A stretch of DNA of 64,000 bases, from NCBI RefSeq assembly GCF_009914755.1, contig NC_060943.1, one strand, 5' to 3'. The notes under the pieces were generated by a model. The model ran no database searches. It was given only the letters and a program-made list of their open reading frames with translations, and was not told the origin of the DNA. The position numbers and the translations under genes were made by a program. Of this stretch, positions 42,673 to 50,093 are shown piece by piece; positions within the stretch are counted from its first letter, which is position 1, and each line of letters begins with the position of its first letter. Origin of the DNA: the human T2T-CHM13v2.0 reference genome, Homo sapiens.

Positions 42673-43653
42673 ATGTTGAGTCGGCTCTTCTACTTGCTGT
42701 TCATGGCAGTTCATTCTCCTGGACACAATATGCCGCCACCGGTGAATAATCCCCCAGGTCACTCTGCTTACTCTTTGCTGTCCCTGTCCTCGTCGCCGGG
42801 CTTCCTTGAATTCCTCCTTCGTGTACAAGTGCCTTGTCTGTCCTGCTTGTCTGGGACCTGCTGCGTTTGCTTCACTGCCAATCGCCGGAGGCCTGCCCGG
42901 GCCTGTGAGGAAGTTTATACTTATTTTTTCCCTAGAGATGAGACCCAGCTTCGTCCTTTCAGTTGCCTCCTTTCTCACTGCAGGGACCGGCACTGGCAGG
43001 ATGCTCGCTTACAGGCATCCCTCGTTTACTATCGGGTCCTTCTCCGCCCGACTACTCTTCAAGAATGCCTCATTCTGTGGCTCCTCAAGCGAGCTGTCTG
43101 GTTCCTCCGGATGGTCATTTATAGGCCTCTTTCTCAGACCCCAGTTTCTCTTTACAACCGGGGTTTCCTGTGGGTCAATGGGAAGTTCTTCATCCGCCTC
43201 CTCAAGCCATTGTTACAGACCTGTACGGCAGTCAGGTGCTTTTTGTATTATGTTGAAAAAGCTGACAGAAAATGCCCCCGGCACTCCCCTTGCTGCTTAT
43301 GTGATCATATCAGGGACGTAAAAAACCAGAATCAACAGCCCAGTCCACTAACTCTGAGCCCCAGGGGCCTTCCATGCCTGTTTAAGCATTTTTTCTGTAT
43401 GATCCCCAAGGAACCTACTATGACCAGGGGAAGATATCAAATTTACCTCCATTCCTCTAACCATCTGTATGCATTAATCCAATATTATCATGCATTAAGG
43501 GGACCTTACCATGGAGTCCCTTCTCTGCAGACTTTAGCAGGGGCAGAACTACTGGACTTCTTGCAGAACCAAGGTCACTGGGAATATGAGAGACAAGAGA
43601 ACTACTCCCATGCCCGACGTTCTTACATGCTTCCTGGCCCAACACAGAGGTGA
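42673..43653 (+). CDS. Leader ORF upstream of gag (pre-gagV1-like), 326 aa, Cys-rich, no recognisable domain
   Basis: Uninterrupted ATG...TGA ORF of 981 nt between the PBS and gag, in a different frame from gag. The start codon actually used is uncertain (several Met). I recall a pre-gag ORF being reported for this provirus. Confidence 0.62.
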   Translation: MLSRLFYLLFMAVHSPGHNMPPPVNNPPGHSAYSLLSLSSSPGFLEFLLRVQVPCLSCLSGTCCVCFTANRRRPARACEEVYTYFFPRDETQLRPFSCLLSHCRDRHWQDARLQASLVYYRVLLRPTTLQECLILWLLKRAVWFLRMVIYRPLSQTPVSLYNRGFLWVNGKFFIRLLKPLLQTCTAVRCFLYYVEKADRKCPRHSPCCLCDHIRDVKNQNQQPSPLTLSPRGLPCLFKHFFCMIPKEPTMTRGRYQIYLHSSNHLYALIQYYHALRGPYHGVPSLQTLAGAELLDFLQNQGHWEYERQENYSHARRSYMLPGPTQR

Positions 43654-43915
43654 GAAAGGCGTCCCTCCTAGGCATCAATCCTAGGAAATCTAAGAAAGGC
43701 TTCTGAGCAAAATGAGATACAGGGAGACAATGGATGGTGCAAATGCTAAGGCTAGCTAATTCTGGAGCCCCAGGGTGAAGAACCAATCATCCCTGTAAAT
43801 AGAGGCATGGACACTTCACCTAGGCCAAGGTGTGGAATGCCTCACCTTCCTGAGGCACCCAATAGGTGGAGAGATGCCTTCTCTATCCTATATTCATTCC
43901 TGTCTTCTCTTTCAG

Positions 43916-48330: not shown

Positions 48331-48659
48331 TGTGAGAAGGTCCCGAAGAACCAACAACAGAATCAGCATCTGAGTAGTCTCATGAGCCAGCCACTGGAGA
48401 GCTTCCAATTCCTCTTCAAGTGAAAAGATAAGTAAAGCCTTCTCTCCTTTCACCTCAAAAAAAGGTCTCTCAGTACGGGGAATCTTGGTTGCGGTGGCAT
48501 CGGTTCTTCTCCTTATTTTGACCCACACTGGCATGCCACCTGAAGTCCCGATAACAGCCTGATTTCTCACTAAACACTCCATCGAACCATTTCATTATTT
48601 GTCTCTCCTATTTTCAGCACTTTCCTTTTGCTTTCACAAAGCTTAAGGGAGAATCAGCT

Positions 48660-50093
48660 ATGACAGAGAAATTCCTTTTCCTTTATCTTTCCCTCCTTCC
48701 CATGCCCCTACTCTCACAGGCACAGTGGAATGAAAATTCCCTTGTCAGTTTTTCCAAAATAATTGCTTCGGGAAACCATCTAAGCAACTGTTGGATCTGC
48801 CACAACTTCATCACCAGGTCCTCATCTTACCAATATATTTTGGTAAGAAATTTTTCTTTAAACCTAACATTTGGTTCAGGAATCCCTGAAGGCCAACATA
48901 AATCTGTTCCGCTCCAGGTTTCGCTTGCTAACTCAGCGCACCAAGTCCCCTGCCTGGATCTCACTCCACCTTTCAATCAAAGCTCTAAAACTTCTTTCTA
49001 TTTCTACAACTGCTCTTCTCTAAACCAAACCTGTTGTCCATGCCCTGAAGGACACTGTGACAGGAAGAACACCTCTGAGGAGGGATTCCCCAGTCCCACC
49101 ATCCATCCCATGAGCTTCTCCCCAGCAGGCTGCCACCCTAACTTGACTCACTGGTGTCCAGCTAAACAAATGAACGATTATCGAGACAAGTCACCCCAAA
49201 ACCGCTGTGCAGCTTGGGAAGGAAAAGAGCTAATCACATGGAGGGTTCTATATTTGCTTCCCAAGGCACACACTGTCCCCACATGGCCAAAATCTACTGT
49301 TCCCCTGGGAGGGCCTCTATCCCCTGCATGCAATCAAACTATTCCAGCAGGGTGGAAATCGCAGTTACACAAGTGGTTCGACAGCCACATCCCCCGGTGG
49401 GCCTGTACCCCTCCTGGCTATGTATTTTTATGTGGGCCACAAAAAAATAAACTGCCCTTTGATGGAAGTCCTAAGATAACTTATTCAACCCCCCCTGTGG
49501 CAAACCTCTACACTTGCATTAATAACATCCAACATACGGGAGAATGTGCTGTGGGACTTTTGGGACCACGGGGGATAGGTGTGACCATTTATAACACCAC
49601 CCAACCCAGACAGAAAAGAGCTCTGGGTCTAATACTGGCAGGGATGGGTGCGGCCATAGGAATGATCGCCCCATGGGGAGGGTTCACTTATCATGATGTC
49701 ACCCTCAGAAATCTCTCCAGACAAATAGACAACATAGCTAAGAGTACCAGAGATAGCATCTCTAAACTCAAGGCCTCCATAGATTCTCTAGCAAATGTAG
49801 TCATGAACAACAGATTGGCCTTAGATTACCTCTTAGCAGAGCAGGGTGGAGTCTGTGCAGTGATCAGTAAATCCTGTTGCATTTATGTCAATAACAGTGG
49901 GGCGATAGAGGAGGATATAAAAAAGATCTATGATGAGGTTACGTGGCTCCATAACTTTGGAAAAGGTGATTCAGCAGGGTCCATTTGGGAGGCTGTGAAG
50001 TCTGCCCTCCCCTCCCTCACATGGTTTGTCCCTTTACTGGGACCAGCTGCACTTAATAGCCTGCTTTCTCCTCTTTGGCCCTTGTCTCTATAA
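48660..50093 (+). CDS. ERVV-1: Endogenous retrovirus group V member 1 Env polyprotein, 477 aa (C-terminally truncated)
   Basis: Signal peptide MTEKFLFLYLSLLPMPLLSQA, SU CWIC motif, furin site RQKR, fusion peptide ALGLILAGMGAAIGMIAPWGGF, ISD VMNNRLALDYLLAEQGGVC and CX6CC (CAVISKSCC). A frameshift within the membrane-spanning segment truncates the protein. Confidence 0.95.
   Translation: MTEKFLFLYLSLLPMPLLSQAQWNENSLVSFSKIIASGNHLSNCWICHNFITRSSSYQYILVRNFSLNLTFGSGIPEGQHKSVPLQVSLANSAHQVPCLDLTPPFNQSSKTSFYFYNCSSLNQTCCPCPEGHCDRKNTSEEGFPSPTIHPMSFSPAGCHPNLTHWCPAKQMNDYRDKSPQNRCAAWEGKELITWRVLYLLPKAHTVPTWPKSTVPLGGPLSPACNQTIPAGWKSQLHKWFDSHIPRWACTPPGYVFLCGPQKNKLPFDGSPKITYSTPPVANLYTCINNIQHTGECAVGLLGPRGIGVTIYNTTQPRQKRALGLILAGMGAAIGMIAPWGGFTYHDVTLRNLSRQIDNIAKSTRDSISKLKASIDSLANVVMNNRLALDYLLAEQGGVCAVISKSCCIYVNNSGAIEEDIKKIYDEVTWLHNFGKGDSAGSIWEAVKSALPSLTWFVPLLGPAALNSLLSPLWPLSL

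What the first reader, a model, noticed from the sequence alone, without database searches (positions are those of the whole stretch)
42673..50093. Three long open ORFs (pre-gag, gag, env) in an otherwise wrecked ancient provirus: a co-opted multi-gene retroviral unit
Seen: the two LTRs are heavily diverged and carry different later insertions. Pro/pol has lost its protease active site and RT core and is full of stops. Yet ORFs of 326, 483 and 477 codons are uninterrupted. Established: ERVV-1 env is a placenta-expressed HERV-V gene, and I recall the gagV1 and pre-gagV1 ORFs being reported as conserved in simians and placenta-specific, so they are not wholly new. Their function is, to my knowledge, unresolved. 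Inference: a myristoylatable Gag with intact MHR and one zinc knuckle but no protease or RT could form immature capsid-like particles (Arc/PEG10-like RNA carrier) or act as a dominant-negative restriction factor, alongside a tail-less Env.
Basis: partly seen in the sequence, partly recalled or inferred. Interest (0 to 1): 0.9.

Follow-up and report, generated by a model that had tools for sequence, protein, structure and literature searches.

The report
HERV-V1 placental gag, pre-gag, env
This is the already published HERV-V1 provirus on human chromosome 19: primates kept its gag gene and its leader ('pre-gag') gene for the placenta while its env copy is decaying, and the leader gene proves to have an intact relative in a squirrel poxvirus.

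Summary
The three open frames exist exactly as stated (326, 483 and 477 codons), inside a provirus whose LTRs are about 24% diverged and whose pol is wrecked. The locus is in print: HERV-V1 with pre-gagV1, gagV1 (=ERVFRD-2) and envV1 (ERVV-1). Published work gives gagV1 purifying selection (dN/dS 0.385, 28 simians) and placental peptides. It treats envV1 as a pseudogene-like duplicate of envV2 kept similar by gene conversion. So "three co-opted genes" is only partly right.

New here, and unverified against the unreadable primary paper:
1. The 1.6-kb leader holding pre-gagV1 is bounded by a consensus splice donor just after the primer-binding site and an acceptor abutting the gag ATG. Both are conserved in HERV-V2 and in related ERVs, and two relatives lack the leader precisely.
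2. GagV1 has no late-budding motif and only one intact zinc knuckle.
3. Pre-gagV1 belongs to an orphan family with 16 conserved Cys/His positions in two tandem modules. The family is found decayed in leaders of related human ERVs, open in a tamarin, and intact in squirrelpox virus (reciprocal best hit).

Functions remain untested.

The parts
41324..42265 (+). 5' LTR of HERV-V1, with an Alu inserted at about 41344-41667
   Evidence: Pairs with 50438-51755 in four colinear blocks of 70-87% identity. It ends in CA two bases before a TGG-initiated putative primer-binding site at 42268.
42268..42285 (+). Putative primer-binding site
   Evidence: Position only: it starts TGG two bases after the LTR end. 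The tRNA identity was not tested.
42303..42312 (+). Candidate major splice donor (exon ends 42306, intron starts GTAAGT at 42307)
   Evidence: Read. GTAAGT is identical in HERV-V2. Its use is inferred, not shown.
42673..43653 (+). pre-gagV1 ORF, 326 codons (alternative starts at 42703 and 42730). Two tandem Cys/His modules.
43893..43915 (+). Candidate splice acceptor: pyrimidine tract plus CAG directly abutting the gag ATG
   Evidence: Read and conserved in HERV-V2. Of 29 related gag copies examined, 23 have an ATGGG start, and 18 of those 23 have CAG abutting it. 2 of the 29 lack the leader entirely.
43916..45367 (+). gagV1 (=ERVFRD-2) ORF, 483 codons: MA, linker, CA, NC
   Evidence: Pfam Gag_p30 2.2e-28, zf-CCHC 3.2e-5, Gag_MA 4.9e-4 (below cut-off). 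CA residues 185-410 match MLV CA 6hwx at 5e-32. Identical to UniProt Q6ZRZ8 as printed in the supplement of PMC12679747.
45368..48659 (+). pro-pol remnant. Protease pieces about 45390-45554; no recognisable RT polymerase domain; RNase H about 46106-46423; integrase pieces about 47293-47475, 47769-48026 and 48246-48356; Alus at about 46809-47154 and 47420-47763.
48598..48617 (+). Candidate env splice acceptor (pyrimidine tract plus CAG)
   Evidence: Read. The 141 bases 48540-48680 are 100% identical to HERV-V2. It lies inside the single RefSeq exon 48490-50692.
48660..50093 (+). ERVV-1 env ORF, 477 codons. One extra base relative to ERVV-2 near 50055 shifts the frame inside the membrane anchor.
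   Evidence: Pfam TLV_coat 5.7e-22. CWIC, RQKR and CX6CC are present. Alignment to ERVV-2 and its 535-aa translation. Hydropathy maximum 1.17 against 2.38.
50438..51755 (+). 3' LTR, with Alus at about 50858-51173 and 51275-51560. AATAAA lies at about 50681 and the RefSeq mRNA ends at 50692.

Best explanation
The stretch is the HERV-V1 provirus, inserted in an early simian ancestor and already described in print.

Shown or published:
- gagV1 (=ERVFRD-2) is a host-kept, placenta-expressed gene.
- pre-gagV1 is an open leader ORF that is also open in a New World monkey.
- ERVV-1 env is the tandem duplicate of ERVV-2. In humans it has lost its membrane anchor and tail, and gene conversion homogenises it with ERVV-2.

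Inferred here:
1. One LTR-driven transcript serves both 5' genes. Unspliced RNA presents pre-gagV1 as its first long ORF. Removal of a 1.6-kb intron (donor 42306/42307, acceptor 43915/43916) places the gag AUG first after short U5 uORFs.
2. GagV1 is an uncleaved, myristoylated MA-linker-CA-NC polyprotein with an MLV-like capsid domain. It has one intact zinc knuckle and no late-budding motif. It should therefore bind membrane and RNA and multimerise, but be released poorly. My best guess is a cell-retained Gag that interferes with related retroviruses, as Fv1 or enJS56A1 do, or that has a trophoblast-internal role. A secreted Arc-like carrier seems less likely.
3. Pre-gagV1 is a non-structural accessory protein built of two tandem Cys/His modules, with 16 conserved candidate metal ligands. 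It descends from a gene carried in the leaders of a clade of gamma-like retroviruses. A squirrel poxvirus also holds this gene, which argues for a host-directed activity.
For: Identity and status:
- ORFs and domains.
- gagV1 and pre-gagV1 are named, simian-conserved and placental (PMC9604959 and PMC9514029, passages).
- ERVFRD-2 has dN/dS 0.385 over 28 simian sequences and 3 peptides, mostly or wholly placental (PMC12679747, passages and Table S3).

Env:
- The ORF is 98.4% identical to ERVV-2, against 83.6% in the 563 bases upstream.
- The frameshift lies in the anchor.
- Published breaks occur in five primates, and fusion assays are negative (PMC3610889; PMC2567338).

Splicing:
- GTAAGT donor and pyrimidine-CAG|ATG acceptor, both kept in HERV-V2.
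- 28 ATGs lie between them.
- Of 29 relatives examined, 23 have an ATGGG start. 18 of those 23 have CAG abutting it, and 14 of the 18 have at least 14 of 20 pyrimidines upstream.
- 2 of 29 relatives join the PBS region directly to ATGGG. A full-length relative has the same PBS region 1151 bases upstream, followed by GTGGTGAGT.
- In either RNA form, the respective gene is the first long ORF.
- ERV-W, HERV-9 and HERV-30 leaders were proposed to be introns on like grounds (PMC6995185).

Gag:
- No PPxY, P(T/S)AP or YPxL motif.
- 3 of 8 aligned relatives carry PPPY at the site where gagV1 does not.
- 4 of 8 have a second CCHC knuckle where gagV1 lacks the His.

Pre-gag ORF retention:
- The V1 frame has 0 stops.
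- The V2 copy has 3 stops in the V1-projected frame against 12 and 14 in the other frames (p 0.013). It has 11 indels, 8 of them frame-breaking.
- A tamarin ORF of 307 aa is 83% identical.

Pre-gag family:
- 15 library proteins match at E<=1e-3.
- Cys is identical in 58 of 94 cells, against 351 of 1411 for residues other than C, H and W.
- In 8 decayed human copies the 16 ligand positions are identical in 78 of 109 cells, against 717 of 1800 elsewhere.
- Internal repeat: hhalign E 3.9e-5, probability 70%.

Squirrelpox protein:
- phmmer E 8.8e-5 against 1.84 billion proteins.
- BLASTP 1e-14 over 276 aa.
- Shuffle z 24, and z 14 with Cys masked.
- Its only hit in the human genome is pre-gagV1.
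- The gene has GC3 0.93 and lies among A33R, A35R and a CD47 homologue.
Against: - No transcript, Ribo-seq or junction data could be consulted, so the splice model rests on sequence alone. The RefSeq env mRNA is a single exon that starts inside the provirus.
- Amino-acid constraint on pre-gagV1 is weak. V1-V2 differences by codon position are 51/61/59. NG86 omega is 0.67, against 0.84 and 0.82 in the wrong frames (uncorrected p 0.03).
- Identity to tamarin (83%) and to drill (64 of 70) is near my rough neutral expectation.
- The PeptideAtlas audit computed dN/dS for four ERV ORFs and reports only three as significant. The passages I read mention no pre-gagV1 peptides, and its supplement file has no occurrence of 'pre-gag' or 'gagV1'.
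- Language-model structures of pre-gagV1 and of the poxvirus protein are unconfident (pLDDT 0.33 for both). There is no Pfam or PDB relative.
- Frame-specific stop depletion in three more distant human copies is not significant: 9 of 471 against 14 of 465 and 21 of 467 (p 0.087).
- Whether gagV1 orthologues also lack the budding motif is unknown here.
- Kjeldbjerg et al. predicted that human EnvV1 is still membrane-anchored (PMC2567338). My hydropathy scan disagrees, but it is crude.
- Metal binding, Gag multimerisation and any antiviral activity are untested.
Confidence: 0.6

Rival explanations
1. Pre-gag, Gag and the tail-less Env act together as a co-opted unit that makes immature capsid-like particles, an Arc/PEG10-like intercellular RNA carrier decorated with Env.
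For: - All three frames are open.
- Gag keeps the Met-Gly start, an MLV-like CA and one CCHC knuckle.
- Gag and env RNAs are placental. ERVV-1 is a syncytiotrophoblast marker (PMC6802852, passages).
Against: - There is no late-budding motif in Gag.
- Env has lost its anchor. It is broken in five other primates and fusion-negative (PMC3610889).
Confidence: 0.1
2. Pre-gagV1 is not a functional protein. The ORF is a relic of an ancestral leader ORF, or its translation matters only as an upstream ORF that tunes gag expression.
For: - Weak amino-acid constraint and no third-position excess.
- No peptide or significant dN/dS is reported in the audit passages read.
- Model confidence is low.
Against: - The ORF is open in human and tamarin, while the V2 duplicate collected 3 stops and 8 frame-breaking indels.
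- All 16 Cys/His positions are kept in human and tamarin.
- An intact homologue sits in a compact poxvirus genome with fully adapted codon composition.
Confidence: 0.15
3. GagV1 is released and acts outside the cell (vesicle cargo, signalling or immune decoy) despite lacking a classical late domain, using another exit route.
For: - The membrane-targeting signal and CA are intact.
- Other domesticated Gags are secreted (recalled, not read here).
Against: - No PPxY, P(T/S)AP or YPxL motif is present.
- There is no direct data either way.
Confidence: 0.15

Closest known systems
gagV1 / ERVFRD-2, pre-gagV1, envV1 of HERV-V1 (Boso et al. 2021, recalled from its abstract, not held; PMC12679747; PMC2567338; PMC3610889)
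   Same: It is this locus. The Gag sequence is identical to UniProt Q6ZRZ8 as printed in the supplement of PMC12679747. Env is 477 aa, with the one-base frameshift already described.
   Different: Nothing differs. I cannot tell whether the splice-bounded leader, the Cys/His modules or the poxvirus relative are in the primary paper.
Moloney murine leukaemia virus Gag (Pr65)
   Same: MA-linker-CA-NC order and a Met-Gly start. CA aligns end to end with solved MLV CA (6hwx, 5e-32).
   Different: There is no PPPY late domain, no working protease to mature it and no in-frame pro-pol. It has a degenerate second knuckle, which MLV does not have at all.
Fv1 (mouse) and enJS56A1 (sheep), Gag-derived restriction factors
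   Same: A lone Gag kept by the host from an otherwise dead provirus. enJS56A1 is expressed in the reproductive tract (recalled).
   Different: No antiviral test exists for gagV1. Fv1 comes from an ERV-L gag. The positive selection reported for gagV1 is recalled from the Boso abstract only.
Arc, PEG10 and RTL proteins
   Same: Domesticated Gag-like proteins with a retroviral-type capsid fold. PEG10 and the RTL proteins have placental roles (PMC9367772, table).
   Different: They come from Ty3-type retrotransposons, not a gammaretrovirus. PEG10 keeps a protease. Capsid formation by gagV1 is untested.
PLAC4 and LOC107986768, the other placental gag ORFs
   Same: ERV gag-derived, with placental peptides and a conserved Met-Gly motif (PMC12679747, passages).
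   Different: PLAC4 keeps only the matrix domain. LOC107986768 is ape-specific. gagV1 is the only full-length one.
ERVV-2 / Mac-syncytin-3
   Same: 97% amino-acid identity over residues 1-469, with the same SU-TM motifs.
   Different: ERVV-2 is 535 aa with an anchor and tail. It is open in all 12 primates tested and fusogenic in Old World monkeys (PMC3610889).
Leader ('pre-gag') ORFs of HERV-H, HERV-T and ERV-W, and MLV glyco-Gag
   Same: A long leader between the PBS and gag that holds an ORF. For ERV-W, HERV-9 and HERV-30 the leader was proposed to be an intron (PMC6995185). A pre-gag ORF is mentioned for HERV-T (PMC5388530).
   Different: Glyco-Gag is an N-terminal extension of Gag in the gag frame, whereas pre-gagV1 is a separate frame that ends 263 bases before gag. 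Sequence homology of pre-gagV1 to those named ORFs was not tested, because repeat family names were not available.
Squirrelpox virus C8R, labelled 'death effector domain protein' by its source
   Same: 24% identity over 276 aa, all four Cys/His motif blocks, and a reciprocal best hit.
   Different: It is a poxvirus gene with GC3 0.93 and an Ala/Ser/Asp-rich N-terminal extension of about 65 residues. The death-effector label finds no support: 0 of 10 family members hit any Pfam family at E<=1.

Membership tests
Gammaretrovirus-type Gag polyprotein | N-terminal Met-Gly myristoylation signal | tested here: met
   MGNQSS at 43916. M1 and G2 are invariant in 9 of 9 aligned Gags.
Gammaretrovirus-type Gag polyprotein | Matrix domain (Pfam Gag_MA) | tested here: inconclusive
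   20.4 bits against a cut-off of 30.
Gammaretrovirus-type Gag polyprotein | Capsid p30 domain with major homology region | tested here: met
   Gag_p30 scores 99.6 bits against a cut-off of 27.4. MLV CA 6hwx matches at 5e-32. Q318, E322, F327 and R330 are invariant in the alignment; naming this block the MHR is from recall.
Gammaretrovirus-type Gag polyprotein | CCHC zinc knuckle in NC | tested here: met
   zf-CCHC scores 24.3 bits against a cut-off of 20.8 at residues 450-465 of the 497-aa form. A second knuckle lacks its His.
Gammaretrovirus-type Gag polyprotein | PPPY late-budding motif in the linker | tested here: not met
   There is no PPxY, P(T/S)AP or YPxL motif anywhere. 3 of 8 relatives have PPPY at the aligned site.
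Gammaretrovirus-type Gag polyprotein | Cognate protease for maturation | tested here: not met
   0 of 23 pol fragments hit a protease family. The remnant matches XMRV protease at E 0.12 and lacks two of the three catalytic-triad residues.
Co-opted host gene | ORF kept in orthologues, with dN/dS below 1 | not testable with these tools
   No primate genomes were available. In print: gagV1 0.385 over 28 simian sequences (PMC12679747, Table S3). For pre-gagV1 there is only a tamarin ORF and the V1-V2 paralogue test, omega 0.67, uncorrected p 0.03.
Co-opted host gene | Protein detected in tissue | not testable with these tools
   In print: 3 peptides for ERVFRD-2, distinguishing peptides for ERVV-2 only, and none mentioned for pre-gagV1 in the passages read.
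Syncytin-type class I fusogenic Env | CXXC in SU, furin site, CX6CC in TM | tested here: met
   CWIC at residue 44, RQKR at 317 and CX6CC at 399.
Syncytin-type class I fusogenic Env | Membrane-spanning anchor and cytoplasmic tail | tested here: not met
   The frameshift lies inside the anchor. The best 19-residue hydropathy is 1.17, against 2.38 in ERVV-2. PMC2567338 predicted that anchoring is retained.
Syncytin-type class I fusogenic Env | Cell-cell fusion activity | not testable with these tools
   Reported negative for envV1 of all simians tested (PMC3610889, passages).
Arc/PEG10-like capsid-forming domesticated Gag | Ty3-type retrotransposon origin | tested here: not met
   The closest solved and database relatives are gammaretroviral Gags.
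Arc/PEG10-like capsid-forming domesticated Gag | Self-assembly and release of RNA-holding capsids | not testable with these tools
Death effector domain proteins (label of the squirrelpox relative) | Match to a death-effector domain model | tested here: not met
   0 of 10 members of alignment A5 hit any Pfam family at E<=1. There is no PDB relative.
Leader-encoded Cys/His protein family (grouping proposed here) | Position between the primer-binding site and gag | tested here: met
   Met for V1 and V2. Three further loci have a pre-gag-like match just upstream of a gag match: C23:88.73 Mb, C24:3.53 Mb and the ERVFRD-1 provirus at C6:10.98 Mb.
Leader-encoded Cys/His protein family (grouping proposed here) | Two modules with 16 conserved Cys/His positions | tested here: met
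   Metal binding itself was not tested.

The most novel reading that the evidence does not exclude
Pre-gagV1 is the domesticated member of an unrecognised family of retroviral accessory proteins. The family has two tandem Cys/His, probably zinc-binding, modules. It is encoded inside a spliceable leader intron of a clade of gamma-like retroviruses and was independently captured by squirrelpox virus. Retention by a primate placenta and by a poxvirus would point to a shared host-directed activity, such as control of innate defence or cell death. Alternative splicing would switch the locus between pre-gag and Gag output.
Probability: 0.3. Interest if true: 0.7.

Novelty: already known. Interest (0 to 1): 0.4.

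Why it matters
The finding as handed over is a correct re-discovery of a published locus, so it does not open a new question by itself.

What could matter is the leader gene. Long 'pre-gag' leaders are a noted but unexplained hallmark of gamma-like ERVs. A conserved Cys/His protein family in them would turn a vague 'putative ORF' into a testable protein, because the family is kept open by simians and also held by a poxvirus.

The splice-bounded leader gives a concrete model for how a Gag behind 28 upstream ATGs gets translated, and the model can be checked against data.

The missing budding motif gives a sequence-based reason to weight the restriction or retention reading of gagV1 above the Arc-like one.

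Tried and rejected
- Structure prediction was not accepted three times. Each retry came after at least 20 other calls, as its message allowed. No fold of Gag or pre-gag was made.
- The primary paper (Boso et al. 2021) is not held.

Searches that gave no lead:
- Rfam found only Alu-derived matches in 41300-45700 and nothing in the leader.
- Pre-gagV1 has no Pfam family, no PDB relative (best E 0.19, not credible) and no usable ESM Atlas neighbour.

Tests for coding constraint on pre-gagV1 were weak or negative:
- There is no third-codon-position excess between V1 and V2: 51/61/59.
- Frame-specific stop depletion in three distant human copies has p 0.087. L015 was dropped because it is the same locus as L025.
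- Five Alus all fall outside the three ORFs, P 0.056, which is not significant.

Poxvirus and virus searches:
- The 'death effector domain' label was considered as a functional lead and rejected for lack of any model match.
- A degenerate-pattern scan of 2.9 million viral contigs matched 75 stretches, of which 1 encodes a relative. That one is the squirrelpox contig, so I found no second virus with the gene.
- An alignment of ten members was too divergent for that tool.

Not attempted: I made no tree to place the poxvirus protein among the ERV copies, so the direction of transfer is inference only.

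
Full report
OBSERVATION

The three frames are real. ORFs run 42673-43653 (326 aa), 43874-45367 (497 aa, or 483 aa from the Met-Gly start at 43916) and 48660-50093 (477 aa). Each ORF frame holds only its own stop. The other two + frames hold 10 and 12, 20 and 25, and 29 and 28 stops respectively. 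The three + frames of 45368-48659 hold 47, 42 and 53 stops. Pfam gives Gag_p30 (2.2e-28), zf-CCHC and a sub-threshold Gag_MA for gag, TLV_coat (5.7e-22) for env, and nothing for pre-gag.

PROVIRUS ANATOMY

The LTRs are 41324-42265 and 50438-51755. They pair in four colinear blocks of 70-87% identity. The 5' LTR is interrupted by one Alu and the 3' LTR by two. They differ at 152 of 631 aligned bases (JC 0.29). That is about 66 My at 2.2e-9 per site per year, or 48-97 My over the other rates tried. This fits the published bracket of 43-77 My (PMC2567338, passages).

Pol is wrecked.
- 0 of 23 fragments hit a reverse-transcriptase or protease family. One hits RNase_H and one hits rve.
- Read through with X at stops, only MLV RT residues 516-622 (RNase H), integrase core and C-terminal pieces, and two weak protease pieces are recognisable.
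- The protease remnant keeps the Asp but not the next two catalytic-triad residues.

WHAT IS KNOWN

This is HERV-V1.
- Citing papers state that gagV1 is placenta-specific and conserved in all simian lineages, and that its provirus also carries envV1 (PMC9604959, passage). They state that gagV1 and pre-gagV1 are highly expressed in placenta (PMC9514029, passage).
- The primary paper (Boso et al. 2021) is not held. I recall only its abstract.
- A 2025 audit of PeptideAtlas calls the gene ERVFRD-2. It reports 3 peptides and dN/dS 0.385 over 28 simian sequences. It gives ERVV1 0.384 (12 sequences) and ERVV2 0.352 (20 sequences). It says four ORFs were tested and three were significant (PMC12679747, passages and Table S3).
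- Pre-gagV1 is not among the three. Its name does not occur in the one supplement file held.

ENV

The human genome holds one close relative, ERVV-2, at 97% amino-acid identity over residues 1-469. I fetched that provirus as L049 and mapped it against V1. V2 keeps the LTRs, the leader and gag codons 1-99, then jumps to the end of pol and env.

Identity to V1 varies sharply along the provirus:
- 98.4% in the env ORF;
- 83.6% in the 563 bases upstream of the ORF as a whole;
- 100% in 48540-48680, the last 120 of those bases plus the ORF start;
- 76-80% in most of the leader.

This pattern fits the published gene conversion (PMC2567338).

V1 has one extra base near 50055, inside the membrane-spanning segment. 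Its best 19-residue hydropathy is 1.17, against 2.38 in V2.

Published cloning found envV1 frameshifted in human, langur and marmoset, stopped in gibbon and orangutan, and fusion-negative in all simians. Its low dN/dS was called paradoxical and ascribed to conversion (PMC3610889, passages). A 2026 survey calls it probably inactive (PMC13461226, passage). ERVV-1 RNA is nevertheless a syncytiotrophoblast marker (PMC6802852, passages). I therefore do not count env as an independently co-opted gene.

GAG

Of 92 gag-like matches in this genome, the next best after this one is 46% identical. 6 have no stop inside, and only this one spans all 483 residues. CA residues 185-410 align end to end with solved MLV CA (5e-32).

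There is no PPxY, P(T/S)AP or YPxL motif. I aligned gagV1 with 8 database relatives.
- At the site where gagV1 has no budding motif, 3 carry PPPY, 1 carries PPPH, 2 are gapped and 2 have no motif.
- 4 of the 8 carry a second CCHC knuckle where gagV1 lacks the His.

With no protease, the product must stay uncleaved. Membrane binding, RNA binding and multimerisation are inferred from the domains. Poor release is inferred from the missing motif.

SPLICE-BOUNDED LEADER

A GTAAGT donor lies at 42307, 39 bases after the putative primer-binding site. A pyrimidine tract plus CAG abuts the gag ATG. Both are kept in V2. 28 ATGs lie between them.

I examined 29 related gag copies.
- 23 have an ATGGG start, and 18 of those 23 have CAG abutting it.
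- Two copies (L056, L075) join the PBS region straight to ATGGG.
- A full-length relative (L079) has the same PBS region 1151 bases upstream, followed by GTGGTGAGT.

In a modelled spliced RNA the gag ATG follows short U5 uORFs that all end by 42189. In unspliced RNA the first long ORF is pre-gagV1. The same idea was proposed for the ERV-W, HERV-9 and HERV-30 leaders (PMC6995185, abstract and passages). No transcript data were available to me.

PRE-GAG: IS IT KEPT?

Against V2, the ORF region shows 11 indels, 8 of them frame-breaking. V2 has 3 stops in the V1-projected frame, against 12 and 14 in the other frames (p 0.013). V1 has 0, 10 and 11. So the frame predates the duplication, and only V1 kept it.

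Expected nonsense hits alone are 3.7-6.6. A tamarin protein of 307 aa is 83% identical.

Amino-acid constraint is weak.
- Differences by codon position are 51/61/59.
- Omega is 0.67, against 0.84 and 0.82 in the wrong frames (uncorrected p 0.03).
- In three more distant human copies, stops are 9 of 471, against 14 of 465 and 21 of 467 (p 0.087).

PRE-GAG: WHAT IS IT?

A full HMMER scan of 1.84 billion representatives found 15 proteins at E<=1e-3. Aligned, they share four blocks: C-x2-C-x4-CC-x-C, C-x3-H-x4-H, C-x5-CC-x-C-x-H and C-x3-H-x2-C.

Conservation of the Cys/His positions:
- In the 8 distant members, Cys is identical in 58 of 94 cells, against 351 of 1411 for residues other than C, H and W.
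- In 8 decayed human leader copies, the 16 positions are identical in 78 of 109 cells, against 717 of 1800 elsewhere.
- The two halves align to each other (hhalign E 3.9e-5, probability 70%).

One member is a squirrelpox virus protein, C8R, named by its source a death effector domain protein.
- BLASTP to pre-gagV1 gives 1e-14 over 276 aa.
- Shuffling gives z 24, or z 14 with Cys masked.
- Its only match in the human genome is pre-gagV1.
- The gene lies about 12 kb from the right end of the 148.8-kb contig. It sits among A33R, a C-type lectin, A35R and a CD47 homologue, and has GC3 0.93.
- No family member hits Pfam or the PDB. Language-model structures are unconfident.

No held paper combines 'pre-gag' with 'poxvirus' or 'squirrelpox' with 'death effector domain'. 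The squirrelpox genome paper has no occurrence of 'retrovir' or 'DED' (PMC4077651). The primary gagV1 paper could not be checked.

VERDICT

Gag is kept, and pre-gag is probably kept. Env is a converted, decaying duplicate.

The added leads are sequence-based and untested. They are the leader intron, the loss of the budding motif, and the Cys/His family with a poxvirus member.

Noticed in passing
L056 (G000:C4:113584519-113587788) and L075 (G000:C1:46266211-46269480): Two related ERV copies have the U5/PBS region joined directly to the gag ATG. They lack the leader of about 1.15 kb that a full-length relative (L079) carries, as if copied from a spliced RNA.
   Followed up: partly
window 42231-42653: The first 420 bases of the leader are only 7% diverged from HERV-V2 (JC 0.073), against 18% in the pre-gag ORF (JC 0.21). 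This stretch holds the PBS and the donor, and overlaps a block (about 42430-42660) found at 69-78% identity in about 20 other ERV loci. Conversion or constraint are both possible; neither was resolved.
   Followed up: no
G000:C1:153810344-153811564 and G000:C2:202979700-202980815: Two other gag-like matches have no stop inside (matches to residues 2-420 and 2-382; open frames of 449 and 442 aa).
   Followed up: no
window 38512-39915 (ARPC1AP2) and protein P0003: A drill (Mandrillus) database protein fuses ARPC1A-like WD40 sequence to the last 70 residues of pre-gag (64 of 70 identical to human). It is probably a gene-model chimera running from the upstream pseudogene into the provirus.
   Followed up: no
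G000:C6:10978335-10979197: The ERVFRD-1 (syncytin-2) provirus also has a decayed pre-gag-like stretch upstream of its gag remnant (36-37% amino-acid identity, with stops).
   Followed up: no
L080:6001-7086: The source label 'death effector domain protein' on the squirrelpox gene finds no support in Pfam or the PDB. The first 65 or so residues are an Ala/Ser/Asp-rich low-complexity extension absent from the ERV proteins.
   Followed up: partly
L049 (HERV-V2), about 2910-3186, 3566-3872 and 4362-4941: HERV-V2 has Alus inserted at the start of and inside its pre-gag-homologous region, whereas HERV-V1 has none in any of its three ORFs.
   Followed up: partly
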